DNA from: an uncultured Methanomassiliicoccales archaeon
GTDB taxonomy: Archaea; Thermoplasmatota; Thermoplasmata; Methanomassiliicoccales; UBA472
DNA: 64,000 bases
Reading direction: 5' to 3'
Assembly (NCBI GenBank): GCA_963695345.1
Contig: OY968769.1
Location: forward strand, 2,176,001-2,240,000
Shown here piece by piece: positions 19,787 to 55,537 of the stretch. The position numbers and the translations under genes are program-made. Position 1 is the first letter of the stretch. Each line of letters begins with the position of its first letter. The notes under the pieces were generated by a model. The model made no database searches and was not told where the DNA came from. It was given only the letters and a program-made list of their open reading frames with translations.

Positions 19787-20464
19787 CTGAGGAATGGAAG
19801 AGCATGCGGGGATAAGAGAGCTATGGTCTGATTCATTCCATGCATCCGTTGGCGATTTGCCGATGGCACCGAAAAATCCGATGACCTCTCCGGATACAGA
19901 GGAAAGGAACCGACATCAAGCAGAATCTGAAGACCTTTCGATGATTATATCTCGTTCGTTAGAATTATTTGCATCATAAGCTTTTTTTATAGTTTTTCGT
20001 ATTATAATTAGTTTGTAATAATTAATATTATCAAATATAATATCAAGGGTTCTATCAGTGTCGTTATCAAAAATGCAATTATATACTTAAAATCAAAATT
20101 GAATTTCCGATAATATGACGAAAATATTGCACATATACCGTTTTAATAGCGTAAATTAGACCGAAACATCGTAATAGCCTAAAGGCGTTTTTATATCGGA
20201 AATTGATAGATTCGGAATCAATTATGATTCTCAGATGTCCGGGTTTAATAACTCAAAATAGGGTTGCTTTTTCCTAGTCGACTAACCAAAAGCATTGACC
20301 AAAGTCGACAATCAAGGCCGCGTTCAACCCTCTTAGCCCAGTCCGACCAGATATCGACGAACAAACTGAACGAAAAGGTTCGTCATGGAACAAGGATCGT
20401 ACGCGAGGGCGGTTATCGGAACGAGGACCAGCCTAACAAATCACCAAGAAAGACGGTCGTTACT

Positions 20465-21889
20465 ATGATCAAGACCAAGTTCGATAGAAGGTCCTTAATG
20501 TTGCTCACACTCCTAGTGGTGGGAGCATTCCTGGGCACATCCGTGGGTGCGGCAGTGTTCGTCGAAGGTCAGGAGGGCACTCTATCAGCCTCTGAGACCG
20601 GTACTGTCGTCATAGAAGCGGCTTACGTCATTTTCAAGGATACCGCGGGCTACACGTGCGCCAAGAACACGACGACCCAGGCGATCGAATTCAAAGATAC
20701 CAATGCAAAACTCATAATCCAGAAGGCCATCGACAGGGCATCGTTCGGCAATGTATGGATCAGGGCCGGTACATATGACATCTCCGCGACGATCTATTCA
20801 TGGTCGACCTCCATCACCGGTGACGGCAACGGGACCATCCTGAAGGCAACCAGCGGCCTGAAGGGAGCGGTCCTCCGTGTGTCCAATGAATACTACAAGG
20901 CCGATGGAACCCTGGTAATGCCCAAGGCGATCGTCGCCGAGAACCGGCCGAATGGTGTGACCATCAGCAACATGCAGATCGACGGCAACAAAGCGGTCCG
21001 GGCTAACGGCGATGGGATGGTCGGGATAGGTTTCATAGACGTCACAAACTGCCATATCCGGGGCGTCTATGCCCACGACATAATAAACGGTCAGGGCTTC
21101 TACATGACCAACTCGCATTACTGCACCATCAGGGATTGTTCGACCTATAACATCGGGGACGACCTTCTGGTAAACTACGGGTCCGGCATCGCCTTCGGTG
21201 AGGCCAGCCAAACCAAGGTCGCAAGTTCGCACATCCTGATCGATAATGTGAAGATCGTCAAATCGTCCATGTCCGCGATAGACCTGGAGCCGGCCAACAA
21301 CATCACCATTACCAACTGCCAGTTCCTAGGTGCCGCAACCTACAACGGATACCCGACCCCGGTTATCACGATGTACGCTCTCAAGGGTTACCTGCCGAAC
21401 GACAACATCATGATCAGCGGCAACCATGTCTATGGAGCGTTCTCCGAGTTCGTCATACTGACCCCGAGCAACTATTCTATCATCACCAATAATATCGTGA
21501 CGTACACCGCCAGCAACGCCATCGCCATCTATTCGACCTCCTCGCACGACAACAAGATCACCGGCAACATCATCAATACGGTCTCGAAGGATGCCTTCGC
21601 CGCTCTGAACTGCAACTCATGCCTGGTCAGCGATAACACCTTCACCGACATCATGACGTCGAAGAACGACTACGGCATCAGGTTCCTGGCCACGACCGGC
21701 ACATCCTACTACAATGTCGTCAGGGGCAACCAAATAACCGGATTCCAATACGCCATCTGCGAAGTGACCGGAACCAATCATATCGTGGTCACCGGCAATG
21801 TGATCAAGTCATGCACCGTGGGCACGTATCTGAAAGGAACGGATATCTACCGGAGCGGGAACATTCTGAACGGCGCAAGCGAGCTGTGA
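20465..21889 (+). CDS. Secreted right-handed parallel beta-helix (pectin-lyase-like) protein
   Basis: Signal-like N-terminus, IQKAID...AGTY...GDGNGTIL cap, and many Asn/Ile/Gly PbH1-like repeats. Confidence 0.85.
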   Translation: MIKTKFDRRSLMLLTLLVVGAFLGTSVGAAVFVEGQEGTLSASETGTVVIEAAYVIFKDTAGYTCAKNTTTQAIEFKDTNAKLIIQKAIDRASFGNVWIRAGTYDISATIYSWSTSITGDGNGTILKATSGLKGAVLRVSNEYYKADGTLVMPKAIVAENRPNGVTISNMQIDGNKAVRANGDGMVGIGFIDVTNCHIRGVYAHDIINGQGFYMTNSHYCTIRDCSTYNIGDDLLVNYGSGIAFGEASQTKVASSHILIDNVKIVKSSMSAIDLEPANNITITNCQFLGAATYNGYPTPVITMYALKGYLPNDNIMISGNHVYGAFSEFVILTPSNYSIITNNIVTYTASNAIAIYSTSSHDNKITGNIINTVSKDAFAALNCNSCLVSDNTFTDIMTSKNDYGIRFLATTGTSYYNVVRGNQITGFQYAICEVTGTNHIVVTGNVIKSCTVGTYLKGTDIYRSGNILNGASEL

Positions 21890-28979: not shown

Positions 28980-31016
28980 ATGCACTTTCGAAAATATTCG
29001 AGGCAGTATCTTATTGACGTAATATTATTCTTCATCTTCGTCATAGCCACACTGACCCAGGAATATTTTCACTTCCAGAATCCGTTCGTCTCCGCCTTCT
29101 CTGTCGTGTACGTCCTGATCTATCCAGCCAAGTTCCTGCTGGCCCTGGTGGACCTCAGGATGAGGTCGATGTCGCTGATGGCGATCATATGCGTGGCGAC
29201 CGCCATCGGTACCATCGAGTTCCTGGGCATGTCCATCTCCGTCGCCGGGAGCGCTTTGGGCATGGCGATATTCACCAAGGCATCGGTGCAGATCGTGATG
29301 ACGCTCTCGATCCTGTTCCTCATGGTGATCTCCCGGGACCTCAAGATACCGGCGATCAAGGTCGACGCGCCCCACTACCTGTACCTGTCGGTATTCCTGA
29401 TCGTCCTGGCCTGCCTGGGGTCGGTGCTGATGACGCAGTACCAGGAGAACATCGTCAACCTGGTGTTCTGGGTTCTGATCCTGATCGTCTCCATGGTCCT
29501 GATCTTGAAAAAAGACCTTACCACTCAAACAAAGCTGATGATGGTCTTTTCGATCTCGCTTTCCTGCCTCCTGAACTATGTGGTGATCGCGAATTTCATC
29601 ACCGGCTACGATATCTTCTATGAATATTCCGTCGCCAACACGACCATGGCCGAGGGTGTATGGAACATAGACTTCGGATCCAATGTCAACGCCATGCTCA
29701 GCATCACCGTTTTCGCTCCGGCGATGGCCTGGTTGGGCAACACCGACCTTCTGTGGATATTGAAGCTGGTCTTTCCGGCCATCTTCTCCCTGGTTCCGGT
29801 CGCGGTGTTCATATTCGCATCCAAAATGGGGAATGAGAAGGCCGGAGTCCTCGGTGCGTTGCTGTATATCCTCATCCAAGGGTTTCTCTTTGAGATGCCG
29901 TCCATCGCGCGTCAGGAGATCGGCGAGGTCTTCCTGATATCGATCTTCATGGTGGCGATGATGGATGAGTTCACTCCCTATCAGAAGGCCACGCTGGGTA
30001 CGATCTTCGGGTTCGGCCTCATCACCTCCCACTACGCCACCACATTGCTTTTCTTCGGGCTTACCGGCCTTTATTACATCATCCGACTGATGTTCCGGGC
30101 CAAGGACAAGCCATTCTTCACTGGATGGCACCTCCTTACCATCATCGTCATCGAAATGACGTGGCTTCTTTACGTCGGCAGCAAGGGCGTCATGGGGTCG
30201 ATATTCCAGGTCATAGACAGCGTCTATTCCGCGGTCTTCAACGAAATGTCGTTCACCAGCACCGTCGTGGCCGACAGGGTCAGCGCATCCGTATCCTTAC
30301 TGCATACGATCGGGAAGTACGGCTTCATTCTGACCATAGGGATCATCGCGCTCGGCGTCCTGGCGAGATTGTACCAGAGACGGAAGAATATGGATAACTA
30401 TACCGCACTGGCCACGGCATTCGGGGTATTGATGGTGGTATCGCTGACGGCCTCAAATTTCCTCGTACTCTTCGGTGACATAAGGATGATCAGCCTGCTG
30501 CTGATCGTTGCCGGGGCCATGTTCTATTTTGGCCTAAGCTGGTTCTTCAACCTGCCATTGCTAAGAACGCAGCGCAAAAGGATGATGTACGCCGCTGCGG
30601 CGATCGTGGCGATATACATGCTCTTCAATTCGGGACTGGCCTACTCGATCGCCAATGACGGTCCGATCTCGATCGCATTGAGCAACGATATCCTCTATCC
30701 CAAATTCTCCGACCCAGACCTGAAAACAGCCAGCTGGACGCAATCCCATCTCGTTACCGATCAGCAGATAGCCGGGGACCGTCTCGGAAGGGCGGTGGTC
30801 GGAGGGTACGGGTGGTTCAATGTGGACCGCGACAATAAGCTGATATCCCCGATCGATAAGGGCGAACTGATCTATCTGGGTACCCGGAACGTCGTCGAGA
30901 TGAAATACGCCGATCCATTGGGGGTGGACCACCCCATTTCCATCGACCAGATGTACACCCACCCGATCGTGTACTGCACCGAGGATTCCCGGGTCCAGTT
31001 CGTGTACTTACGTTGA
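28980..31016 (+). CDS. DUF2206-like polytopic membrane protein
   Basis: 678 aa with many TM segments, GYDIFYEY, NAMLSIT, ARQEIGE and SHY motifs, and a soluble C-terminal domain. Confidence 0.72.
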   Translation: MHFRKYSRQYLIDVILFFIFVIATLTQEYFHFQNPFVSAFSVVYVLIYPAKFLLALVDLRMRSMSLMAIICVATAIGTIEFLGMSISVAGSALGMAIFTKASVQIVMTLSILFLMVISRDLKIPAIKVDAPHYLYLSVFLIVLACLGSVLMTQYQENIVNLVFWVLILIVSMVLILKKDLTTQTKLMMVFSISLSCLLNYVVIANFITGYDIFYEYSVANTTMAEGVWNIDFGSNVNAMLSITVFAPAMAWLGNTDLLWILKLVFPAIFSLVPVAVFIFASKMGNEKAGVLGALLYILIQGFLFEMPSIARQEIGEVFLISIFMVAMMDEFTPYQKATLGTIFGFGLITSHYATTLLFFGLTGLYYIIRLMFRAKDKPFFTGWHLLTIIVIEMTWLLYVGSKGVMGSIFQVIDSVYSAVFNEMSFTSTVVADRVSASVSLLHTIGKYGFILTIGIIALGVLARLYQRRKNMDNYTALATAFGVLMVVSLTASNFLVLFGDIRMISLLLIVAGAMFYFGLSWFFNLPLLRTQRKRMMYAAAAIVAIYMLFNSGLAYSIANDGPISIALSNDILYPKFSDPDLKTASWTQSHLVTDQQIAGDRLGRAVVGGYGWFNVDRDNKLISPIDKGELIYLGTRNVVEMKYADPLGVDHPISIDQMYTHPIVYCTEDSRVQFVYLR

Positions 31017-31245
31017 TTGCGGAAGGGCATTTTTCTCGGTTGCTTTCCTTGAGCCCAAGAACATGCAGGGAAGAAATTGAATGCCGATCTCGCTTTTTTT
31101 ATACTCGTCTCAAAATGAATGAAGCTTATCTTGTTCCGTGCCAGTTGTCCAGTCCATAATATGTGATGGTCTGATCTGCAATGGCGGAATAAAAAATTAC
31201 CTCAACAATTTATATATAGAGATCTCCCATTTTCAGCCCTACCAA

Positions 31246-32235
31246 ATGAAAATGCTGGAGCGTAAAGATTGGGACCTATGGTCCGTCATGATCGGCTCGC
31301 TACTCCTGATAGGAGCGGTCCTGGCATTACCCGACTCATTGATTACCGTCATTGTCGGAATCCCATTCATTCTGTTCTTCCCCGGATATGCCATCCTGTC
31401 AGTGGTCTTTCCGTCGGCCAAACACCTGGCGACCGTTGAAAGGATGGTCATCTCCCTCGGTCTCAGCATCGCCATCGCCCCGGTGGTGGGGATAGGTCTC
31501 AATCTTTTTGAGATCGGAGCCGGGATGTCCCTTATCCTGCTGATCATTGCGCTGGTCTCGCTGGTGTTCGTCCTGGTCGGTCTATTCGTTCGGAACAGGA
31601 CAGAGGGGGCCTATCTTCCCGTCTCTCCCTCGCGGGCATGGAGCTGGGCGACGTCATCCTTAGGTCAGAAGGGGAGGGGCAAGAAGATCGTCAGCGGGGT
31701 CATGGTCGTGGCCATCATAGCCTCGGCAACTGCCCTGGTGGTTCTGGTGGCATACCCTCCCCAGAGCGAGAGCTTCACCGAGTTCTATATCCTCGGTCCC
31801 GACGGCAAATCGGCAGACTATCCCCATAAACTCCTGACGGGCCAGTCCGCCTCTGTCCAGGTCGGGATAGTCAACCACGAGCACCGCCAGGTGAACTACT
31901 CGCTGGAGATCTGGCTCTCCGGCGTGACCATTGTGAACAATCAGACCAGCGTCCAGTCCATGTACCTGTTCGAGGCCAGGAACATAACCCTGGAACATGT
32001 CCCGGTGAATGTGGTGGAAACCGGCATAAAGCAATACGAGTTCAACTATACGTTCCAGGTGCAGATCGCCGGGGATTACCGGCTCTTCTTCATTCTCTAC
32101 CTGGACGATGAACCGGTGCTTCCGGAAAATCCCATGGTCCCCTACCGCAATTACGTGGGCACGGAAGCCTTCCGAATAAACGATGCCCTGGCCAACGATG
32201 TGATGAGCCTGAACCTGATACTGAACGTCACTTGA
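31246..32235 (+). CDS. DUF1616-like membrane protein
   Basis: FFPGYA, ERxxxSxGLS, FTEFYILG, DYP and NHE motifs. TTTATATA about 30 nt upstream of ATG 31246. Confidence 0.82.
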   Translation: MKMLERKDWDLWSVMIGSLLLIGAVLALPDSLITVIVGIPFILFFPGYAILSVVFPSAKHLATVERMVISLGLSIAIAPVVGIGLNLFEIGAGMSLILLIIALVSLVFVLVGLFVRNRTEGAYLPVSPSRAWSWATSSLGQKGRGKKIVSGVMVVAIIASATALVVLVAYPPQSESFTEFYILGPDGKSADYPHKLLTGQSASVQVGIVNHEHRQVNYSLEIWLSGVTIVNNQTSVQSMYLFEARNITLEHVPVNVVETGIKQYEFNYTFQVQIAGDYRLFFILYLDDEPVLPENPMVPYRNYVGTEAFRINDALANDVMSLNLILNVT

Positions 32236-32456
32236 TCCGCACCAACGAGAAGGCATGGCAGGATGTCGATCCCTTGATGCGGTGTGGACGCCCTCCAATT
32301 CCCCATTCTTACGGTAATCATTGACCTGGATAGATAGTCCCATCGATCGGTTCAAACGGCGTCAAGATGAAATTAATGAAGGCCGAGCCCTCTTGATTGC
32401 AGGGCTTAACAAAACAAATAAGGGGATTGATAAGGTTTGTTGATCTTCCGGAAGGA

Positions 32457-32726
32457 TCAGTTCAACGGATGAACGATCTCGAGGATCTGGAACACCACGG
32501 TAGCCGCGAACACGATAAGAAGCGGAATGACCACAGCGTCCAATGTCGCCAGTATCCTCTTCGACCTCTTCGAGGAGGCGCTTATGAGCTCCCTTGACGA
32601 CAGAAGCATGACCAGGAGAATGGCGATTAGAGCACCGCCGACGCCCCCACTGAGGACTGCCGTCATCGAAATTGCGCTAGATGTTGCGCTCGATGCTAAC
32701 GTTGATGCTGCCATCACTAAGCTCAT
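32457..32726 (-). CDS. Small 2-TM membrane protein with Ser/Thr/Ala-rich N-terminus
   Basis: 89 aa: ASTLASSATSSAISMT, then a TM helix, RELxxxS with a basic loop, and a second TM helix VIPLLIVF. Confidence 0.75.
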   Translation of the reverse strand: MSLVMAASTLASSATSSAISMTAVLSGGVGGALIAILLVMLLSSRELISASSKRSKRILATLDAVVIPLLIVFAATVVFQILEIVHPLN

Positions 32727-32855
32727 AACATTCTATAATGAGGCAATTTGTTCTATTTAATCTTAACTCACTCTCTCCAAAAAACGTAGGTCGAGATGAT
32801 AGGAAAGATATCAGACAACAATTGCTTATATAGATTTTCGCTCATGGAGCCCTGA

Positions 32856-34364
32856 ATGATCGGTCGTAGAACCCTCTTAATCATCATATCAAACGTCGGC
32901 GCCGCGGCGCTTTCCTTCATCGGGCTATTGTTCATGACGAACTACCTGGGTAAGGATGTCTACGGCAACATCGCCTGGGTCCTGGCAACGACCGGTACGT
33001 TGAACATCGTGTCAGACCTCGGTTTCATGAGCGCCCACGTCAAAAGGGTGTCCGAGGGGCAGGACGAGAACGATTGTTTCTCCACGTATTTCGTGATCAA
33101 GTCATCCCTTACCGCCTTCATGGTGGTCTTCACCTTCGTGGCTCTGGTCGTTTGGACCGATATCAGCAACACCGCCATAACACCCGAGGCCTGGAACCTG
33201 GTCATCTTATTCCTCCTGTACTGGGTGATGTACGACCTGGCCCATGTCGTGGTGCAAACATACAACGGCAGGAGGGAGACGACCAAGGCTCAGATGATCC
33301 TGCTCACCGATCCCCTGATACGCGTTCCTTTCATCATCTTCATATCCATCAATCATGGTAGCACGTTCGAGCTGGCGTTCTCCTATGTCTTCGCGTCGTT
33401 CGCGGTCCTGCTGGTGGCTCTGTTCTTCATGAGAAGGGGCACCCTCCGCTGGAAGAAACCGACGCTGTTCCGTTCCTACATCAAGTTCGCCCTGCCGATC
33501 TCACTGATCTCCATCGCCGGGGCCATCACCGTCAACCTGGACAAGATACTGATCGGCGTCTTCGATTCGCCGGCTAACGTCGCCTTCTACTCCTCCTCGC
33601 AGACCATATTGGCCACGGTGGGCGTGATAGGCACGGCGGTGGCGACGCTGGCTTTCCCCTCGTTCTCCTACTTGCATAGTAAAGGGGACCTCGAGACCAT
33701 CAAGAAGACCACCTATGCGGCGGAACGGTACATCGCCATGATCGGGATCCCGATCGTGACCCTGGTCGTCCTGTTCCCTACTCAGATATGCGTTACGGTC
33801 TTCGGGGCGGACTTCCGCCCGGCCGGACAGACGATGCAGTTCCTCGGGTTCACGTTGGGAATGACGATGCTCAACCAGGTGTACACGTCCCAGATAATGG
33901 GCGTCAACCGGCCGGACATCACCGCCAAGATCATTCTGGGAACGTTCTTTTTGAACCTCGGCCTGATGCTGGTGTTCATTCCGCACGACCTGTTCGGGTT
34001 CCATATGCTCGGCCTGTCGTACGCGGGGGCGGCGATGGCCAACGTGATCACCGCGACGACGGTGTTCCTGACGGTGCGCATGGTGGTGAAGAGACTGACC
34101 GGTACCGGTACCGAGCGGAGGATGTGGAAGCATCTGGCGGCAGCGGCGTCGGCTGGAGCGGTGCTCGTATTGCTGAATACGATCTATCCCCTCGGAGGGT
34201 TCATTTCCCTGGCGATCTTCTTCCTGGTCCTGGAGGCGATCTTCTTCGGAATGCTGGTAGCGCTCAAGGAATTCACCATCTGGGACCTAAGGCAGATTCT
34301 GGACCTCATCAATCCCGCCAAGATGCTGAAGTATATGGGAGAAGAGATGAACAACAAGAAATGA
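32856..34364 (+). CDS. Wzx-like oligosaccharide flippase
   Basis: 502-aa polytopic protein with DLG, NLDKILIG and FPSFS. Colinear paralogue of 3847-5356. Confidence 0.9.
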   Translation: MIGRRTLLIIISNVGAAALSFIGLLFMTNYLGKDVYGNIAWVLATTGTLNIVSDLGFMSAHVKRVSEGQDENDCFSTYFVIKSSLTAFMVVFTFVALVVWTDISNTAITPEAWNLVILFLLYWVMYDLAHVVVQTYNGRRETTKAQMILLTDPLIRVPFIIFISINHGSTFELAFSYVFASFAVLLVALFFMRRGTLRWKKPTLFRSYIKFALPISLISIAGAITVNLDKILIGVFDSPANVAFYSSSQTILATVGVIGTAVATLAFPSFSYLHSKGDLETIKKTTYAAERYIAMIGIPIVTLVVLFPTQICVTVFGADFRPAGQTMQFLGFTLGMTMLNQVYTSQIMGVNRPDITAKIILGTFFLNLGLMLVFIPHDLFGFHMLGLSYAGAAMANVITATTVFLTVRMVVKRLTGTGTERRMWKHLAAAASAGAVLVLLNTIYPLGGFISLAIFFLVLEAIFFGMLVALKEFTIWDLRQILDLINPAKMLKYMGEEMNNKK

Positions 34365-34699
34365 CCGTTCATCGTGAACGGCCAGCACCCATCGAACTTG
34401 TACTCGCCCTGCTTCCGTGTAGCACCATTTTTCCCGCAGGGCCGTTCTCTCCATCCAGTATCGAGACAAATTGTACCTTGATGCGTCTTTGGCTGTCGAA
34501 GCGTTACTGTGTTCGTAAACATGATATGAGTTCATTCTAACGAGCGGAACCTATCACCGGTGAACGCTTCTTGCATCCGTTACGTTTTCATCAGGAAAGT
34601 GCCTTTCATCCCATCTCAACTTCTGAACGAATCGTTATTCTGATGAGCCCGACCGAGCTTGGGGGCTGTGCATAGTATAAGAATTTGGTGATTTCATTT

Positions 34700-34795
34700 G
34701 TTAAACTAATATCAAAAAAGTTCATATTTTAGAAGGCCAAATGTCATTCAGTTCTTAATATGATGACATATTTCAATATAATTTTGTTTATATCT
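34700..34795 (+). promoter_or_regulatory. Archaeal promoter with conserved upstream boxes (copy A)
   Basis: GTTAAACTAATAT, TTCATATT, TATGATGA and ATATAATTTTGTTTATATCT (containing TATA-like TTTATAT) recur with near-identical spacing at 54901-54995 on the minus strand. Confidence 0.75.
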
Positions 34796-34816
34796 TATCG
34801 TTTTCTATCTTAAATC

Positions 34817-35067
34817 ATGGGCGGGCAAGCGAAAGAGCTCTCGTTGAGGGTTAGTCCGTTCATTCCGTCGGATGGAATTCCGTCGGATCAGTTGCGATCG
34901 ACATCGACTGGATCCATTTTCGATCCAGGATGTTCAGGCTGTATTTCCCAGGGCGATTTCTTTCGATCGCCTGTAAACACGAGGAAGAACAGCTGACGAT
35001 CATCCAATCGTCAGGATGTGCCTCGATCAGTCTGCTGTAGTGAAACGTAACGAAGGAGCTGATAAAC
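34817..35067 (+). ncRNA. Candidate structured 5' leader RNA (copy A)
   Basis: Homologous to 54628-54880 (-). Four hairpins keep their pairing despite sequence changes. Confidence 0.65.
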
Positions 35068-35283
35068 ATGAGAATGGTATCATCAGGGAAGGACAAGAGC
35101 AGGATGGGCGTTGCGACGGCCTTAATAGTCGCGAAGGAACCCACAGCGACGGTCGATCAGTCCGTTTTGTGTCAAGGGGCGAACAAAACCAGGGACCGGG
35201 CATGGACGATCGGCGATCAGGCGATGAAAAAGAACTGTTACGAGAACGTCTCAAGCCAAAGCGGGGGCTGTTCCATATGGTAA
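35068..35283 (+). CDS. Small upstream peptide (71 aa), homologue of 54355-54627
   Basis: SD-like GGAGCTGA upstream, synonymous divergence from its paralogue, and a stop overlapping the downstream start (ATGGTAA). Confidence 0.7.
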   Translation: MRMVSSGKDKSRMGVATALIVAKEPTATVDQSVLCQGANKTRDRAWTIGDQAMKKNCYENVSSQSGGCSIW

Positions 35284-36684
35284 GGATCAGGTTCAACGGC
35301 AGGTCCCTCACGCTGCTGTCGATGATGATCGTGGGGGCGATGATCGGAACATCCCTCCTGGGTGCCGCGTCGGTTCAGGGTGCCACCGCCCCGGTCGTGC
35401 CCCTCGGGGACGGGACGTCGGTTTCAGTGTCCTACACCATTTACAAAGATGGCAGCGGATACACCTGCGCGAAGAACGCGATAACCGCCGCAATCGATTT
35501 CCGGGACACCAACTCCCGAACGGTGATTCAGAAGGCGATCGACAAGCTGTCGGGCGGCTATGTCTACATCAAGGCAGGAACGTATGACATTTCCAAGACC
35601 ATCTACACGAACAAAGTGTCGATCGTCGGCGACGGGAACGGGACCATACTCAAGATCGGCACCACCGTTCACAGCGCAGGCCTGCTGGTGACGAACGGCT
35701 ACTACAAGCTCGATGGCACCTACATGTCCAGCCGTCCGACCGGCATCACCATCAGCAACCTCCAGGTCGACGGCAACCGGGCCGTCAGGACCAGCGGGAC
35801 GATGGAAGGCATCGGCATGATAAACACCCTGAACAGCAAGATCTTCAGGGTCTACGTGCACGACGTGATCGCTGGGACAGGGCATCTACATGTCCAACTC
35901 GCAGTACTGCAGCATTAAGAACAGCCAGGTCTACAACATCGGGGATACGACATACGCGCACTACGGATCGGGAATCGCGTTCGGCGAGGCTTCATCTTCG
36001 AAGATAGCATCGGCGTACATCACCATCGACAAGGTGCGGATCACGAAAGTGTCGATGTCCTGCATCGACCTGGAGCCGGCCAACCACGTGACCATAACCA
36101 ACTGCGTTTTCCGTGAGGCCTCGACCTGGAACGGGCACGCCACCCCGGTGATAACGGAATATGTGATATCCGGATGGGGGGCAAATGATTACATCACGGC
36201 CACCGGCAACAATATGTACGGTGCATTCGGGGAGTTCATCGTCCTGACGCCGAGCAACCATTGTGTGATCAGCAACAACGTCATCACCTATACCGCCGGG
36301 AAAACGGCCGCCATATACTCCACCGGGTCGTACGACAATGTGATCAAAGGGAACAAGATCACGACCATCCAGAAGGACGCGATCGTGGGAGTGAACTGCC
36401 GGTCGTTCTTGGTGGAAGGCAACACGATCGACGAGGCGGCCACGGGTCAGAACGCCTACGGGATCCGGTTCTTCGAATCCGGCGGCACATCGTCCGACAA
36501 CCAGATCAAGAGCAACACGGTCATCGGTTTCAAGTACGCCATCACGGCCAACTACGGTAGCGACTACTCGACGATCACGTACAACACCGTCAAGTCAAGC
36601 TATGTCGGCCTGATGCTGACCGGAACGCACAATGTCAAGATCGGCAACGTGCTGAACGGAGCGCTGGAACGGATATCCGCGTAA
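35277..36684 (+). CDS. Secreted right-handed beta-helix protein (frameshift at GGG 35874-35876)
   Basis: Paralogue of 20465-21889. Removing one G gives IAGQGIYMSNS, matching INGQGFYMTNS in the paralogue. Confidence 0.85.
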
Positions 36685-50826: not shown

Positions 50827-51951
50827 GTGTTTTACTATCATATGGACCCGAGCGTCACTAATATCAAAAGCGTCCGTGACAAGATCATTGCCCAGGCCCA
50901 GGGATTGATCGCCAACGGGATCGATGTCACCATCGTGATCGGTCAAGAGGACGAGCGTGTCTCTCGCGAAATGAAGCAGACCAACAATATCAGAACCATT
51001 TATTTAAATAAAGTAACCAAGAATAAATACCTTGGATATTTCACCGATTTTGCAGATCTGATGCGGTTCACCATGAGCCTCAATGAGAACGATATCCTAT
51101 ACACAAGATATTCGCCTTTTTCACTGTTCATTGTCCCCAGAAATTGCACCATCATCACAGAGCATCAGACCAAGGAGTCGATGGAATACAAGTCGAACTC
51201 ATTTCTCCCGTTCATGATGGAAAGATGTTTCGGGAAGCTAAACAGGAGAATGCGCGATTACTATGTCGCAGTGACTGGGGAGATATCCGATTTCGAATCC
51301 CAGTACGGTGAAGCGGGCCATATTGTGATACCGAACGGGATATCCCTGCAAAACATTCCAGTGATAACCAGAAAGGCGGCGGTCGGCGAGGAGTTCCATG
51401 TAGTCGGCTTGGCAAATGTCTCCCTATGGCATGGATACGATCGCATGATCGAAGGTCTGAACAGATACTCCGGCCCGGTGAAAGTCTATTTCCATATCAT
51501 AGGGGAGGGTCTAGAGCTTCCCAACCTGAGACTCCTGGCCAAGAAATATGGGCTGGAAGAGCGGGTGATATTCCACGGCCATATGAGAGGAAATGAATTG
51601 AACAGCATCATGGACAACTATCACATCGCCATCGGGGCGCTGGGCATCCACCGGATAGGGATCAGGGAGGCGGCGACATTGAAGAGCCGAGAATACTGTT
51701 CCAGGGGCATTCCTTTCATCGAGGATACGATCGATGGCGATTTCAAGGATTTCCCCTATCGATACCAGATAGAACCCGAAGAGAGCCCTATCGACGTCGG
51801 CAAACTGATCGAATTCTTCAATGGATTTGCATCGGATGACTATCCTCGAAAAATGAGAGAATATGCGGAACAGAACCTGACCTGGGAAAGTAAAATGAAA
51901 GTGCTGAAGACGTTCCTCACAGAGATCCGTTCGAAGAACGGGTCATCCTAG
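50827..51951 (+). CDS. Glycosyltransferase family 4-like
   Basis: IPNGI, WHGYDR, IIGEG and LKSREYCSRGIPF. Start uncertain. Confidence 0.83.
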   Translation: MFYYHMDPSVTNIKSVRDKIIAQAQGLIANGIDVTIVIGQEDERVSREMKQTNNIRTIYLNKVTKNKYLGYFTDFADLMRFTMSLNENDILYTRYSPFSLFIVPRNCTIITEHQTKESMEYKSNSFLPFMMERCFGKLNRRMRDYYVAVTGEISDFESQYGEAGHIVIPNGISLQNIPVITRKAAVGEEFHVVGLANVSLWHGYDRMIEGLNRYSGPVKVYFHIIGEGLELPNLRLLAKKYGLEERVIFHGHMRGNELNSIMDNYHIAIGALGIHRIGIREAATLKSREYCSRGIPFIEDTIDGDFKDFPYRYQIEPEESPIDVGKLIEFFNGFASDDYPRKMREYAEQNLTWESKMKVLKTFLTEIRSKNGSS

Positions 51952-53022: not shown

Positions 53023-54355
53023 TTACGCGTGCGGTGCCGCGTGGACCTCCGTGCTAAGGGCTCCTATTCCGACCGCGTTGACCGCGGCGATCTTGAAGTA
53101 ATAGGTTACCCCGTTAGTCAGATAGGTGTTCGTGTACGACGTGCCAGGACCGATCGTCGCGACCAGGGTTTCCGTTCCGGAAGACCAGCCGCGGTAGATC
53201 TTATAGGCGGTGATCGCCGATCCGCCGGTGGACGGTGCGGTCCAGGTCAGCTTGACCGCTGTGTTGGAACCGGTCGCGGTTATCGATGTTACCTTGCCCG
53301 GGACACCTGACGTTGGTGTCGGTGTCGGTGTCGGTGTCGGGGTTGAGGTGGTCGGTATTGAAGAGCTGCCGCAGTTGAGGACCGTTCCCGTCTTCTGGAT
53401 CATGCTCAGCCCTTCATAGTTGCCGACTCCCTTGCAGTTTATGCAGGAGACGCCCGGTACCTGGAATCCCTGGAACCGGAAGCCGTAGCCGTAGTAGGTG
53501 GGGCACTTGGGGCGCTGTCCGTTGTAGTTGGCAACGCAATCGATCAGCTTGATGTTCTTCGGGGACGAACCGTACTCGACGTGGAACCCGGAACACCAGT
53601 TGTAGTTCGCTGAGCATCTGGTCAGGATGATGTTCTCCACACGGGTGCACTCGACCAGGTCATATCCAACAATCCAGGCATTGACCCAGCCGATGTTGTC
53701 GCCGCCGTTGTGGCTGGCATCGCAGTCGGTAAAGGCAACGTTCCTGATCAGGCTCTTACCGGAATAACTATTGTCATCGCCGAACAGCAGGAATCCATAG
53801 GTCTGGGAGTATGTGACGGTGCAGCGGGTGAATTTCACACCATCGATCATGCCGTTTGCGCCAACGTACAACCAGAACCCGGCGTTCATGTCTCCCGTCA
53901 AGGTCGTGGCGTGAACATCGGTGAAGACCCAGTTCCCGCAGGTCCCTCCAGCCTTATATCCGTATATCTGGAGGTGTCCCGTGAACTTGAACGATTGCAT
54001 CGTAACGTACGAGACTCCCTTGATGTAGAAGTTGTGAGACGAGGTCGATTTGAAAACGGTCGAATCACCATCGCCTTTCAATGTCGTTCCTGTGCCGAAG
54101 TATACGTGGGCCGTGATCATGTAAGTTCCGGCTGGAACGTATGTCACCTTATTGATATTCGACAACGCCCAGTTCAAGGCGGCGGTGAACGATGCCGCGC
54201 TGTATACTGTTCTTCCTGATGAGTCAACGACCACGTTGGATGAGACCTTGTAGTCATATGCTCCGGCGGCGCTGACATCGCTGGCCATCGATGGGAAAAG
54301 CGGATACCGTCAGTCCCATGACGACCAACACGAGGAGGCAATTCCTGAGCTTCAT
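53023..54355 (-). CDS. Secreted beta-helix protein with Pro/Thr linker and C-terminal fibronectin type III domain (frameshift in signal peptide)
   Basis: VPAGTY...GDG cap, beta-helix repeats, (TP)n linker, and FN3 signature LTWTAP...YKIYR...LTNGVTYYFKIAAVN. Signal peptide MKLRNCLLVLVVMGLTVSAFP from ATG 54355 joins the long frame if one base of the run at 54293-54295 is removed. Confidence 0.85.
53315..53338. repeat. (GGTGTC)x4 tandem repeat encoding the Thr-Pro linker
   Basis: Directly visible and in frame within the FN3 protein. Confidence 0.9.
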
Positions 54356-54627
54356 TACGCTACCCCGTGGTCATTGCCCGTGCATTTCTCATTCCGAGGA
54401 CCAGCGTACTTATCCGCCATGGTACCATTCTGCCGATCGTCGATGCGGCTGGCCTGGCGGCTGCTAGTGCCCGATATGGTCCAAGAATACCTGATTCTTG
54501 TTTTATTCGCCATACAGTTCATCCCTGACAAGGCAAACGCCGCTCCGGGTTCCGTTGCGGCGAAGATGGCCGTCCTGGAGACGCCCTTCCCTCGCTTGTC
54601 TGTCTTCGATGGTAGTCCCATTCTCAT
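54355..54627 (-). CDS. Small upstream peptide (90 aa), homologue of 35068-35283
   Basis: GGGAGC SD-like site, MRM start, shared TA..A.EP.A, ANKTR and WTI motifs, and a TAATG overlap with the downstream start. Confidence 0.7.
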   Translation of the reverse strand: MRMGLPSKTDKRGKGVSRTAIFAATEPGAAFALSGMNCMANKTRIRYSWTISGTSSRQASRIDDRQNGTMADKYAGPRNEKCTGNDHGVA

Positions 54628-54880
54628 GTTTTTCAAGCTCCCTTTCGTTACGTTGCACTCAGATAGACTGAGAAGAGACAGTTTAACCAGACGACACGAT
54701 GGTCGCCGAGGGTCTGCCTCATATGCCGGCGATTGGAAGAATCGCTGTAAGGCGTACAGCCTGAACATCAGGAATCGAAAATGAATTCCACGATGTCGAT
54801 TGCAACTGAACCCGACGGAGTATCACCGACGGCAGAGTGAACAAAACCCCCGACGAGGGTTCTTCCATTTGTTCTCTCAT
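54628..54880 (-). ncRNA. Candidate structured 5' leader RNA (copy B)
   Basis: Homologous to 34817-35067, with pairing-preserving substitutions in the stems. Confidence 0.65.
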
Positions 54881-54900
54881 AATTAGGCAATTGTTTAATG

Positions 54901-54995
54901 AGATATAAACAAAATTATATCTAAATCATTCATCATAATAAATAACATCATAATATTTGCACCAGTAATATGAAATATATCCATATTAGTTTAAC
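54901..54995 (-). promoter_or_regulatory. Archaeal promoter with conserved upstream boxes (copy B)
   Basis: Same four boxes as 34700-34795, including the identical 20-mer at 54901-54920. Confidence 0.75.
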
Positions 54996-55537
54996 GAATG
55001 GATTCGTTACCTTCTTATAACATGACCGGTTGCCGCGACCTCGGCATCGCGAGCGTTTCCCTCTTTTTGTTACGTCGAAAACGACGAAATGGCAGTCCGA
55101 TTGAGGACGGTTTATGTACGAACTTCCACATCGGAGCGCCTGAGTCCACATACCAAGTTTCTGTAATGATCCGTGGGTCGCACTGCCGCGGATATCTTGG
55201 AATCATGGGATCTGCCCGGCGCCGAGACTTCAGTTCTACGCCCTTTGAGCGGATGATCCGATAAGGCTTGATACTATTGTGTATAGTTCAAGCGATCCCA
55301 TTTTGACGCATCCAGATGAAAAACTATCGTCCTACCCCTGTTAACAATATGGCAGGCGATCGTGGACACCCGACCAAAATGAATGATCGTGAGCAATAAG
55401 GTACCTGGCCGTTCACCTATTTGCAATCCTTACGGGTATATACCGATATGATTCCTCTCGATTCCAGATGCCAAAAATCCACTCAATGACAAAGTTACAT
55501 CAATTAATTTATATCATCGTCATGAATAGAGAATGAC

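What the first reader, a model, noticed from the sequence alone, without database searches (positions are those of the whole stretch)
34817..35067. Candidate new archaeal cis-regulatory RNA: duplicated ~250-nt leader with covarying hairpins ahead of secreted beta-helix genes
This region aligns with 54880-54628 (-). H1 is AGCTCTC-gtt-GAGGGTT versus AACCCTC-gtc-GGGGGTT, followed by two CCGTCGG copies in each. H2 (34900-34934 / 54797-54764) is GACATC..CTGGATC-cattttc-GATCCAG.GATGTT versus GACATC..GGAATT-cattttc-GATTCC.GATGTT, with an identical loop and a changed stem, flanked by conserved CAGTTG and CAGGCTGTA. H3 is GCGATT-tctttc-GATCGC versus GCGATT-cttcc-AATCGC. H4 is GACGAT-catcca-ATCGTC versus GGCGAC-catcgt-GTCGTC (a U-A to C-G swap) inside an outer GAGG stem. 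A conserved AGTGnAACGTAACGAA precedes the SD. The two downstream proteins are only distantly related, and the closest paralogue of the copy A gene (20465) lacks this leader, so the cassette looks modular. I recognise no known family. A riboswitch, attenuator or antitermination element analogous to bacterial EAR or ops elements of polysaccharide loci is plausible (inference from two copies only).
Basis: partly seen in the sequence, partly recalled or inferred. Interest (0 to 1): 0.88.

Follow-up and report, generated by a model that had tools for sequence, protein, structure and literature searches.

The report
Structured archaeal leader RNA before archaellin-derived ORF
A roughly 250-base folded RNA leader, repeated in one genus of methane-producing archaea, sits between a private promoter and a small gene derived from the front end of a flagellum-like filament protein, and probably controls production of secreted beta-helix proteins.

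Summary
The two window copies (34812-35067 +; 54885-54628 -) belong to a family of 16 full copies, plus 2 decayed ones, in 6 of 8 genomes of one Methanomassiliicoccales genus. None was found in 39 genomes of other genera of the family or convincingly in 143 other genomes of the order.

A nine-helix fold is supported. 88.5-89.5% of cells pair, against 35-42% in slid controls. 25-31 of 68 pairs carry compensatory changes, against 12-14 in shuffles (0/500). G-U cells (88) outnumber A-C cells (26), so the RNA is on the gene strand. There is no Rfam match, no conserved ORF in the leader, no MITE features, and no match in phage or plasmid records or virus contigs.

New points:
- Every copy follows a unique AT-rich promoter block.
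- The gene directly downstream is not the beta-helix gene. It is a 52-90-codon ORF homologous to the first ~60 residues of the genome's own archaellins (hhalign 98%).
- In 13 of 15 intact copies that ORF's stop overlaps an ATG/GTG, taken as the beta-helix gene's start.

Best reading: a new cis-acting leader that gates translation or stability. The sensor is unknown. The riboswitch and EAR/ops analogies remain untested or unsupported.

The parts
34660..34811 (+). Copy A promoter block. AT-rich and conserved, it holds the 17-nt motif ATATAATTTTGTTTATA (34776-34792), whose core is an inverted repeat ATATAA-N6-TTATAT with a TATA-like TTTATAT at 34787-34793.
   Evidence: The 150 nt upstream are 67% identical on average among 14 copies, with GC 0.24-0.30 against 0.47-0.54 in the leader. 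The motif (up to 2 mismatches) occurs only at the 5 cassettes in the 2.56-Mb genome. TTTATA starts 23-26 nt before the CM hit in 16 of 16 copies. Its role as a promoter is inferred, not shown.
34812..35067 (+). Copy A leader RNA (the finding)
   Evidence: R1 covariance-model hit at 216.5 bits, E 1.3e-71. Fold z-score -2.78 against shuffles.
34819..34861 (+). P1 (34819-34826 with 34854-34861) enclosing P1a (34837-34842 with 34846-34851) and the conserved purine tract J1 (GAAAG, 34831-34835)
   Evidence: P1 has 4 of 8 pairs and P1a has 5 of 6 pairs with compensatory changes. Coordinates.
34865..34886 (+). P2: the two CCGTCGG copies pair with each other
   Evidence: 95-98% of cells are paired and 2 of 7 pairs have compensatory changes. 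The whole hairpin is deleted in one copy (N, G003).
34891..35046 (+). P3: long-range closing helix, GTTGC (34891-34895) with GAAAC/GCAAC (35042-35046)
   Evidence: 87-91% of cells are paired and 3 of 5 pairs have compensatory changes in A8. There is a G.A mismatch in 3 copies including A. The 5' arm is deleted in copy M.
34901..34933 (+).
   Evidence: 7 of 12 pairs have compensatory changes.
34935..35034 (+). P5: CAGGCTG (34935-34941) with CAGTCTG (35028-35034), enclosing P6-P8
   Evidence: 93% of cells are paired. One G-U pair is kept in 15 of 16 copies. 2 of 7 pairs are compensatory, both through the diverged copies.
34953..34970 (+).
   Evidence: 0 of 6 pairs are compensatory; 4 vary on one side through G-U. 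Three loop positions are among only 13 invariant unpaired columns.
34981..35024 (+).
   Evidence: P7 has 3 of 7 and P8 has 5 of 10 pairs with compensatory changes. In the diverged copy L039 both arms are rewritten and, as read by eye, would still pair. The model did not align that 3' arm, so this is not in the counts.
35055..35058 (+). Shine-Dalgarno-like GGAG, 9 nt before the small ORF's ATG
   Evidence: GGAG or GAGG lies within 22 nt of the start in 16 of 16 copies. The tail GTAACGAAAGGAG..CATGA.AATG resembles the RBS region of the genome's archaellin genes.
35068..35283 (+). Copy A small ORF (71 aa), derived from an archaellin N-terminus
   Evidence: Profile of 32 homologues against the genome's archaellin: hhalign probability 98%, E 1.2e-13, 40% identity over 60 columns. 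Core NKARDxAWxIGDQAMKK. pI 9.3-11.6.
35277..36684 (+). Copy A secreted beta-helix gene. Its start overlaps the small ORF's stop (ATGGTAA). It is read in two frames (35277-35918 and 35890-36684).
   Evidence: Pfam Pect-lyase_RHGA_epim 3.2e-09, Beta_helix 1.8e-16, NosD 1e-10. It splits into two matches against the intact 388-aa relative.
54886..55035 (-). Copy B promoter block (17-nt motif at 54904-54920)
54628..54885 (-). Copy B leader RNA. Helices: P1 54878-54835, P1a 54860-54846, P2 54832-54812, P3 54806-54802 with 54656-54652, P4 54796-54765, P5 54763-54757 with 54670-54664, P6 54745-54729, P7 54720-54675, P8 54712-54686.
   Evidence: R1 hit at 241.6 bits. Coordinates.
54355..54627 (-). Copy B small ORF (90 aa; variant C-terminus shared with copy G of G007, whose small ORF is 88 aa)
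53023..54355 (-). Copy B secreted beta-helix + FN3 gene. The signal peptide is in one frame (54355-54254) and the mature part in another (54288-53023).
   Evidence: Pfam fn3 1.4e-10. Beta_helix (21.8 bits, cut-off 25.9) and Pect-lyase_RHGA_epim (21.6 bits, cut-off 27) are below Pfam's cut-offs. The homologue in L042 is continuous.
20466..21889 (+). Beta-helix paralogue without the cassette (negative control)
   Evidence: 54% identical to the intact relative. No R1 hit. The upstream sequence is unrelated, with an unrelated 27-codon ORF.

Best explanation
This is a previously undescribed structured 5' leader RNA of about 250 nt with nine helices. It forms the middle part of a three-part expression cassette:
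1. A private AT-rich promoter block with a palindromic TATA-overlapping motif.
2. The leader.
3. A small basic ORF derived from the first ~60 codons and the ribosome-binding region of an archaellin gene.

In 13 of 15 intact copies the small ORF's stop codon overlaps an ATG/GTG, taken as the start of a variable secreted beta-helix gene. Ribosomes finishing the small ORF would therefore start the enzyme gene.

The leader most likely acts in cis on its own mRNA. Its fold, possibly locked by a J1:P6-loop contact, would set how accessible the Shine-Dalgarno/AUG of the small ORF is, how long the mRNA lives, or both. It would do so in response to a trans factor not yet identified (a small ligand or a protein). 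Through coupling, that would set output of the beta-helix protein.

Shown: the family, its fold, its strand, its fixed position and the origin of the small ORF.
Inferred: the transcription start, translation of the small ORF, coupling, and any switching.
For: Family size: 16 full copies and 2 decayed ones in 6 of 8 genomes of one genus.

Fold on a structure-blind MAFFT alignment of 14 copies:
- 88.5% of 921 cells paired, against 35.8-41.5% when partners are slid.
- 25 of 68 pairs changed on both sides, against 12.2 +/- 2.2 in shuffles (0/500) and 8-13 slid.

Fold on the model-fitted alignment of 16 copies: 89.5% paired, and 31 of 68 pairs against 14.2 +/- 2.4 (0/500).

Strand: 88 G-U cells against 26 A-C cells places the RNA on the gene strand.

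Not coding:
- 0 of 16 leaders have a stop-free sense frame.
- The longest ORFs start at nine different positions.
- The 5' ATG is missing in 5 of 16; one of the other 11 has GTG.

Conservation: non-coding parts are more conserved than the enzyme gene. Mean identities are upstream 150 nt 0.67, leader 0.68, small ORF 0.64 and first 600 nt of the beta-helix gene 0.54.

Likely transcript start:
- P1 begins 30-33 nt after the start of TTTATA in 16 of 16 copies.
- GC jumps from about 0.26 to about 0.50 there.
- This fits a transcript starting just before P1. The usual archaeal TATA-to-start distance is recalled knowledge.

Fixed context:
- All 16 leaders are followed by the small ORF.
- It is intact in 15 and cut after 6 codons in 1.
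- In 13 of the 15 intact copies its stop overlaps an ATG/GTG.
- The downstream frame was checked as a signal-peptide beta-helix protein in 6.

Small ORF is archaellin-derived.

The invariant unpaired positions include the first G of J1 and three P6-loop bases, which are complementary to each other.
Against: - No expression data exist, so the transcription start and even transcription of the leader are inferred.
- The 16 copies come from six related genomes and are paralogues or orthologues. Compensatory cells are therefore not independent events.
- P6 has no compensatory pair.
- The proposed pseudoknot has one compensatory change and is not distinguishable from controls (140/500 shuffles; slid controls 79-88% paired at -1 to -3, 25-62% at +1 to +3).
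- I found no conserved alternative helix that hides the Shine-Dalgarno. In free folding, P(unpaired SD) ranges from 0.17 to 0.95, and the competing hairpins differ between copies.
- One copy lacks P2 and one lacks the 5' arm of P3.
- Some cassettes look damaged: the small ORF is cut in copy K, and the beta-helix genes of window copies A and B are frameshifted.
- Codon-position differences in the small ORF are only mildly coding-like (0.31/0.30/0.38 overall; 0.24/0.19/0.32 in the core).
Confidence: 0.5

Rival explanations
1. Constitutive leader. The fold senses nothing. It protects the 5' end of the mRNA and presents the ribosome-binding site for strong, steady expression of a secreted protein, as described for long structured leaders of S-layer genes (recalled, not from a call).
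For: P1 starts within a few nucleotides of the predicted transcript start. The Shine-Dalgarno lies outside all nine helices. No conserved alternative pairing was found. The downstream proteins carry signal peptides.
Against: Nine helices, four branch points and near-invariant junction and loop bases are more than 5'-end protection usually needs. The nearest beta-helix paralogue lacks this leader.
Confidence: 0.25
2. Metabolite riboswitch: a specific form of the best explanation. The junctions bind a small molecule linked to surface-glycan metabolism.
For: Multi-helix fold with covarying stems and conserved unpaired bases. Window copies lie in a polysaccharide island with a Wzx-type flippase, GT2, GT4-type and sugar epimerase/dehydratase genes.
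Against: The RNA is tied to one operon type in one genus. It was found in 0 of 39 genomes of other genera of the family and in no credible case among 143 other genomes of the order. It co-duplicates with its gene. No expression platform was seen. Copies C and D lie elsewhere in the genome, and their surroundings were not annotated beyond the cassette.
Confidence: 0.2
3. Protein-bound autoregulatory leader. The basic small-ORF peptide, or another protein, binds the leader and feeds back on translation.
For: Leader and small ORF always occur together: 16 of 16 leaders are followed by the ORF. The two genomes of the genus without the leader show only archaellin-length matches to the small-ORF profile. 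The peptide has pI 9.3-11.6 and an invariant core.
Against: The AlphaFold2 model is low confidence (pLDDT 58.7) with a single helix and no recognisable RNA-binding fold. Co-occurrence is equally expected from simple linkage.
Confidence: 0.12
4. There is no RNA function. The similarity reflects recent duplication, gene conversion or DNA-level operator sites, or a mobile repeat.
For: The copies are paralogous cassettes, some in tandem. The promoter motif is a DNA palindrome.
Against: Compensatory changes far exceed the controls. G-U over A-C asymmetry points to RNA. No terminal inverted repeats of 14 nt or more flank the cassette. Only 5 copies exist per genome, always in the same context. No match in virus contigs, phage records or plasmid records.
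Confidence: 0.04

Closest known systems
Riboswitches and other structured cis-regulatory mRNA leaders (Rfam 'Cis-reg')
   Same: Position in the 5' UTR directly before an SD/AUG, a multi-helix fold kept by compensatory changes, and conserved junction bases.
   Different: No Rfam family matches. It is restricted to one operon type in one genus. No ligand and no expression platform are known.
EAR (eps-associated RNA) and ops/JUMPStart elements of bacterial polysaccharide operons
   Same: A non-coding element located in surface-polysaccharide gene neighbourhoods.
   Different: Those elements act on transcription elongation through long operons and need bacterial factors. Here the unit is two genes, no ops motif lies in the leaders, and there is no Rfam hit.
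Long stabilising 5' leaders of S-layer and other abundant secreted-protein genes (recalled)
   Same: A long structured leader ahead of a signal-peptide protein, with a stem near the 5' end.
   Different: The fold here is much more elaborate. An upstream ORF is interposed, and the leader is absent from the nearest paralogue.
Upstream ORFs with translational coupling, and autoregulatory leaders of ribosomal-protein operons
   Same: A small ORF whose stop overlaps the next start (ATGA, TAATG). The leader and first gene are inherited as a unit.
   Different: The upstream ORF is an exapted archaellin N-terminus. No evidence of protein-RNA binding.
Archaellins (Pfam PF01917 Arch_flagellin)
   Same: The small ORF aligns with residues 1-62 of the genome's archaellins, including the charged leader MxMxxSWKKDKR..MG and the ANK...GDQA segment. 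The RBS region is also similar.
   Different: It is only 52-90 aa long. The hydrophobic core helix is interrupted by P, E, D and T. It has no globular domain and gives no Pfam hit. It has its own invariant core, D..W..GDQ.M.K.

Membership tests
Any Rfam 15 family | Covariance-model score at or above the family's gathering score | tested here: not met
   0 matches in the 64-kb window at gathering thresholds. With permissive filters on 34650-35300 only two matches appeared, at E = 2 and 6.6 and far below gathering.
Riboswitch | Conserved aptamer fold supported by covariation | tested here: met
   25 of 68 (MAFFT) and 31 of 68 (model-fitted) pairs have compensatory changes, with 0/500 shuffles as high.
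Riboswitch | Expression platform with mutually exclusive pairing that hides the SD or forms a terminator | tested here: inconclusive
   Free folding gives different competing hairpins in different copies, and P(unpaired SD) ranges from 0.17 to 0.95. The U-run in the P4 loop is 5 or more in only 5 of 16 copies (read).
Riboswitch | Association with genes of one metabolite's pathway across several lineages | tested here: not met
   Always ahead of the same small-ORF/beta-helix unit, and found in one genus only.
Riboswitch | Direct, specific ligand binding | not testable with these tools
   Needs in-line probing, SHAPE or ITC.
EAR / ops antitermination elements | Sequence or structure signature (EAR model; ops GGCGGTAG, motif recalled) ahead of a long operon | tested here: not met
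   No Rfam hit. GGCGGTAG occurs twice in the window, at 2117 and 15233, which is chance level and not in the leaders. The unit has two genes.
MITE or other mobile repeat | Terminal inverted repeats and many copies in unrelated contexts | tested here: not met
   No inverted repeat of 14 nt or more brackets the cassette. There are 5 copies per genome, all in the same context. No match in virus contigs, phage records or plasmid records.
Protein-coding region | An open frame conserved across copies | tested here: not met
   0 of 16 leaders have a stop-free sense frame. ORF positions differ, and the 5' ATG is absent in 5 of 16; one of the other 11 has GTG. An indel shifts the frame between A and B.
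Archaellin (for the small ORF) | Full Arch_flagellin domain with a hydrophobic N-terminal helix | tested here: not met
   Only the first ~60 residues align. No Pfam hit for the small ORFs even at E <= 1. The genome's true archaellin scores 1.3e-25.
Translationally coupled upstream ORF | The upstream ORF's stop overlaps or abuts the downstream start, with an SD inside the upstream ORF | tested here: met
   In 13 of 15 intact small ORFs the stop overlaps an ATG or GTG (ATGA 7, TAATG 3, GTGA 1, longer overlaps 2). The other 2 have short gaps. GAGG lies in the last codons. Actual coupling was not tested.

The most novel reading that the evidence does not exclude
The cassette is a two-layer switch of a kind not described in Archaea. 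A new ligand- or protein-sensing leader RNA would turn on a soluble archaellin-N-terminus mimic together with secreted glycan-active beta-helix enzymes. The mimic would interfere with archaellin processing or assembly. Motility would then be shut off whenever the surface-polysaccharide programme is switched on. This would be an archaeal counterpart of the bacterial link between eps operons and flagellar arrest (the bacterial example is recalled).
Probability: 0.08. Interest if true: 0.9.

Novelty: new variant of a known kind. Interest (0 to 1): 0.66.

Why it matters
As far as I recall, few structured cis-acting mRNA leaders are known in Archaea, and most known ones are shared with Bacteria. 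Two full-text searches turned up nothing on this element. This one is archaeal only, has no Rfam relative, and its fold is backed by covariation, so it can go straight to probing and reporter tests.

It also shows an unusual piece of gene tinkering. The ribosome-binding region and first ~60 codons of an archaellin gene were detached, lost their membrane helix, and were reused as an upstream ORF. Together with a private promoter and the leader, that ORF forms a portable module placed before different secreted beta-helix genes in surface-glycan regions of Methanomassiliicoccales.

Tried and rejected
**Coding leader.** The 59- and 53-codon ORFs that open at the leader's 5' ATG in A and B are rejected. 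The ATG is absent in 5 of 16 (one of the other 11 has GTG), the frames differ, and no frame is open throughout.

**Known RNA family.** None.

**Remote copies.**
- Three weak R1 hits in another family of the order (22.2, 19.9 and 14.0 bits) were inspected and rejected.
- One lies inside a DnaJ-like ORF (my reading of its translation). The others have no small ORF or beta-helix gene downstream.
- Small open frames matching the small-ORF profile in another genus proved, in the one locus I read (L061), to be a truncated ordinary archaellin. The second fetched locus (L062) was not read.

**Pseudoknot J1:P6-loop.** Complementary in 96% of cells with one compensatory change (copy A, GAAAG/CTTTC), but not separable from controls. 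Kept only as a hypothesis.

**SD-sequestering alternative helix.** Seen in free folds of some copies only. Not claimed.

**More homologues.**
- The pattern scan of genome contigs returned 4 loci already held.
- The scan of metagenome contigs returned one 1006-nt contig that appears identical to the G002 copy.
Two of them were called with N-terminal extensions. By my own back-translation (no tool call) these match the leader's 3' tail, so the leader probably accompanies them.

**Expression.** No RNA holder was listed.

**Small-ORF structure.** AlphaFold2 gave pLDDT 58.7 with one helix. No fold search was run because the model is too weak.

**Beta-helix protein against PDB sequences.** No match at E <= 0.01.

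**MITE, ops motif, phage and plasmid records, virus contigs.** All negative.

**Literature.**
- Three full-text searches were run: Methanomassiliicoccales + riboswitch; Methanomassiliicoccus with leader, UTR, TSS and ncRNA terms; Methanomassiliicoccales + archaellin.
- I saw only the search listings and abstract starts. None concerns this element, and no paper was read.
- Statements about S-layer leaders, EAR/ops, bacterial eps-flagellum coupling and archaeal TATA-to-start spacing are recalled.

Full report
**1. The observation**

The two regions align from about 150 nt upstream of the stated start, through the leader, and about 200 nt into the downstream sequence. In the leader they are 186/257 = 72.4% identical and differ by four compensatory pairs. 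Rfam has nothing: 0 hits at gathering thresholds in the whole window, and only E = 2 and 6.6 hits with permissive filters on 34650-35300.

**2. How many copies, and where**

- BLAST of 34660-35290 against the window's own 2.56-Mb single-contig genome found five copies. These are the two in the window and three elsewhere (C1:802622-803168, C1:1291163-1291712, C1:2272172-2272730).
- In 60 relatives, BLAST found it in 5 of 7 other genomes of the same genus and in 0 of 53 genomes of other genera.
- I built a covariance model (R1: 270 positions, 68 pairs).
  - It found the same five copies in the own genome.
  - In 47 genomes of the family it hit only the same genus: 6 of 8 genomes including the own one, and 0 of 39 genomes in seven other genera.
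  - The two genomes of the genus without a hit are each 93% complete.
- That search added two diverged full-length copies (83.6 and 79.2 bits). It also added two decayed partial copies (P6-P8 only) lying 2.3 kb downstream of full copies, ahead of a tandem beta-helix gene.
- In 151 genomes of the order, three further weak hits (14-22 bits) appeared. I rejected them after inspection.
- Record titles of relatives' contigs name the group as Methanomassiliicoccales.
- Pattern scans of genome contigs, metagenome contigs and viral contigs added no new sequence. Phage and plasmid records have no match.
- Total: 16 full copies in six genomes.

**3. The fold**

RNAalifold on 5 and then 14 copies, plus my reading of the alignment, gave nine helices:
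- P1 enclosing hairpin P1a and a conserved purine tract J1.
- P2, formed by the two CCGTCGG copies.
- A long-range closing helix P3 (GUUGC/GCAAC).
- The long hairpin P4.
- P5 (CAGGCUG/CAGUCUG) enclosing hairpin P6, and P7 with P8 stacked inside it.

*Test on the structure-blind MAFFT alignment of 14 copies*
- 88.5% of 921 cells pair, against 35.8-41.5% when the 3' partners are slid by 1-3 columns.
- 25 of 68 pairs carry a change on both sides, against 12.2 +/- 2.2 in shuffles (0 of 500 as high) and 8-13 in slid controls.

*Test on the model-fitted alignment of 16 copies, which leans towards the structure*
- 89.5% of cells pair, and 31 of 68 pairs carry a change on both sides, against 14.2 +/- 2.4 (0 of 500).
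- Compensatory pairs per helix: P1 4/8, P1a 5/6, P2 2/7, P3 3/5, P4 7/12, P5 2/7, P6 0/6, P7 3/7, P8 5/10.
- P6 therefore rests on conservation and G-U wobbles only.

*Other points on the fold*
- In the diverged copy L039, as read by eye, both arms of P7/P8 are rewritten and would still pair. The model did not align that 3' arm, so this is not in the counts.
- G-U cells (88) outnumber A-C cells (26) among 1044. This places the selected structure on the RNA of the gene strand.
- Caveat: the copies are related paralogues and orthologues from six close genomes, so cells are not independent events.

**4. Not coding, not mobile**

- No sense frame is stop-free in any of the 16 leaders.
- The longest ORFs start at nine different positions.
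- The 5' ATG is absent in 5 of 16; one of the other 11 has GTG.
- No inverted repeats of 14 nt or more bracket the cassette.

**5. What lies upstream**

- The 150 nt before the leader are as conserved as the leader itself: mean identity 0.67 against 0.68. The first 600 nt of the beta-helix genes average 0.54.
- The block is AT-rich (GC 0.24-0.30, against 0.47-0.54 in the leader).
- It holds the motif ATATAATTTTGTTTATA or a close variant in 16 of 16 copies. Its core is an inverted repeat ATATAA-N6-TTATAT ending in a TATA-like TTTATAT.
- In the own genome this motif, with up to 2 mismatches, occurs only at the five cassettes.
- P1 starts 30-33 nt after the first T of TTTATA in all copies. This fits a transcript that begins a few nucleotides before P1. 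It is an inference from recalled archaeal promoter geometry, not a mapped start.

**6. What lies downstream: the main new finding**

- After an SD-like GGAG, every leader is followed by a small ORF of 52-90 codons. It is intact in 15 of 16 copies and cut after 6 codons in one.
- In 13 of the 15 intact copies its stop overlaps an ATG or GTG: ATGA in 7, TAATG in 3, GTGA in 1, and longer overlaps in 2.
- In the six cases I translated, that start opens a signal-peptide beta-helix protein.
- Pfam hits on the beta-helix proteins are Pect-lyase_RHGA_epim, Beta_helix, NosD and fn3.
- A profile of the small ORFs found 29 further public homologues, all unnamed 'hypothetical' or unannotated. The invariant core is D..W..GDQ.M.K within NKARDxAWxIGDQAMKK.
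- Searching the order with that profile hit positions 1-60 of about 200-235-residue open frames in many genomes. These include a four-gene tandem array in the own genome.
  - Those frames are archaellins: Pfam Arch_flagellin, E = 1.3e-25.
  - hhalign of the small-ORF profile against one of them gives probability 98%, E = 1.2e-13 and 40% identity over 60 columns. The alignment covers the charged class-III-type leader and the ANK...GDQA segment.
- In the small ORFs the hydrophobic core helix is interrupted by P, E, D and T.
- They give no Pfam hit, are basic (pI 9.3-11.6), and are modelled only as one long helix at low confidence (pLDDT 58.7).
- The archaellin genes' own 5' regions share with the leader only the tail GUAA.GAAAGGAG...AACAUGA.AAUG.
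- The cassette therefore joins a private promoter and a new structured leader to the ribosome-binding region and first ~60 codons of an archaellin gene. Different secreted beta-helix genes follow that module.
- The closest paralogue of the copy A enzyme (window 20466-21889, 54% identical to the intact relative) has none of this.

**7. Mechanism**

*Shown*
- A conserved, strand-specific RNA fold.
- A fixed position between a private promoter block and an SD/AUG.
- In 13 of 15 intact copies, overlap of the small ORF's stop with an ATG/GTG, taken as the enzyme gene's start.

*Inferred*
- The leader is the 5' UTR.
- The small ORF is translated. Codon-position differences are only mildly coding-like: 0.24/0.19/0.32 in the core.
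- Ribosomes re-initiate on the enzyme gene.

I commit to a cis-acting regulatory leader that sets access to the small ORF's start, mRNA life-time, or both, in response to an unidentified factor (confidence 0.5).

*For a regulatory rather than a merely protective role*
- Four branch points.
- Only 13 invariant unpaired columns. These include the first G of J1 (GGAAG) and three bases of the P6 loop (CUUCC), which are mutually complementary and also resemble an SD/anti-SD pair.
- In copy A, J1 is GAAAG and the loop CUUUC, a compensatory change. The helix is nevertheless not statistically separable from controls.

*Against a regulatory role*
- I found no conserved SD-hiding alternative helix.
- One copy lacks P2 and one lacks the 5' arm of P3.
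- There are no expression data. No RNA holder was listed; this is reported only as tried.

The rivals (constitutive stabiliser, metabolite riboswitch, peptide-bound autoregulation, no RNA function) are scored in their own sections.

**8. Comparison and novelty**

- The element behaves like a structured cis-regulatory leader plus a coupled upstream ORF. Both are known kinds.
- It belongs to no described family, and its upstream ORF is an exapted archaellin N-terminus.
- Three full-text searches showed nothing on it (listings and abstract starts only).
- The EAR/ops analogy fails the features I could test. 'Riboswitch' meets the fold criterion but not the distribution criterion, and ligand binding is untestable here.
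- I rate it a new variant of a known kind, with interest 0.66. It is a well-supported new archaeal leader RNA with an odd evolutionary make-up. Its limits are a one-genus distribution and an unknown function.

**9. Limits**

- Supplements were not consulted and no paper was read.

Noticed in passing
window 35880-35920 and 54250-54360: Both window beta-helix genes are read in two frames. Copy A splits at about 35890-35918 (two matches against the intact 388-aa relative). In copy B the signal peptide (54355-54254) is out of frame with the mature part (54288-53023). The genome is a single contig but only 85% 'complete', so these may be assembly indel errors rather than pseudogenes.
   Followed up: partly
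own genome G000:C1:687951-691846 (locus L060): Tandem array of four near-identical archaellin genes (203-234 aa as listed; Pfam Arch_flagellin 1.3e-25). Upstream of the one gene read in the array lies a gap of about 390 nt holding a TATA-like GGTTTATAAAG and a CCCGGATTCCGGG hairpin about 40 nt before the start.
   Followed up: partly
window 20200-20470: The leaderless beta-helix paralogue has its own roughly 200-nt GC-normal upstream stretch after an AT-rich block. It also has an unrelated 27-codon ORF (20385-20468) whose stop overlaps the gene's ATG (ATGA). Upstream-ORF coupling may be a wider habit of this gene family.
   Followed up: no
loci L042 (G005:C4:28010-28104) and L043 (G007:C1:650718-650810): Decayed leader remnants (P6-P8 region only; 24.7 and 13.1 bits) sit between two tandem B-type beta-helix/FN3 genes, with remnants of the promoter block. 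This is a snapshot of cassette decay after tandem duplication.
   Followed up: partly
window 34776-34793; 54904-54920: The invariant promoter motif is an inverted repeat ATATAA-N6-TTATAT overlapping the TATA-like box, which suggests a dimeric transcription-factor site. A second conserved near-palindrome, GTTAAAyTAATAT, lies about 85 nt further upstream.
   Followed up: no
window 28980-34364 and 36933-57475: The surroundings form a surface-glycan island: DUF2206 and DUF1616 membrane proteins, a Wzx-type flippase, a hexapeptide acyltransferase, GT2 and GT4-type glycosyltransferases (GT hits for 50827-51951 below Pfam cut-offs), and two NAD-dependent sugar epimerase/dehydratases.
   Followed up: partly
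locus L061 (G022:C11:203800-206900): In another genus of the family an ordinary archaellin gene appears truncated or frameshifted at 103 aa. The ORFs beside it were listed but not annotated. It explains the short-frame hits of the small-ORF profile outside the genus.
   Followed up: partly
small ORF core, e.g. window 35185-35235: Third codon positions in the core (GGC GAT CAG GCG ATG AAA AAG) are almost invariant across copies. This hints at an added nucleotide-level constraint (RNA structure or codon choice) inside the small ORF.
   Followed up: no
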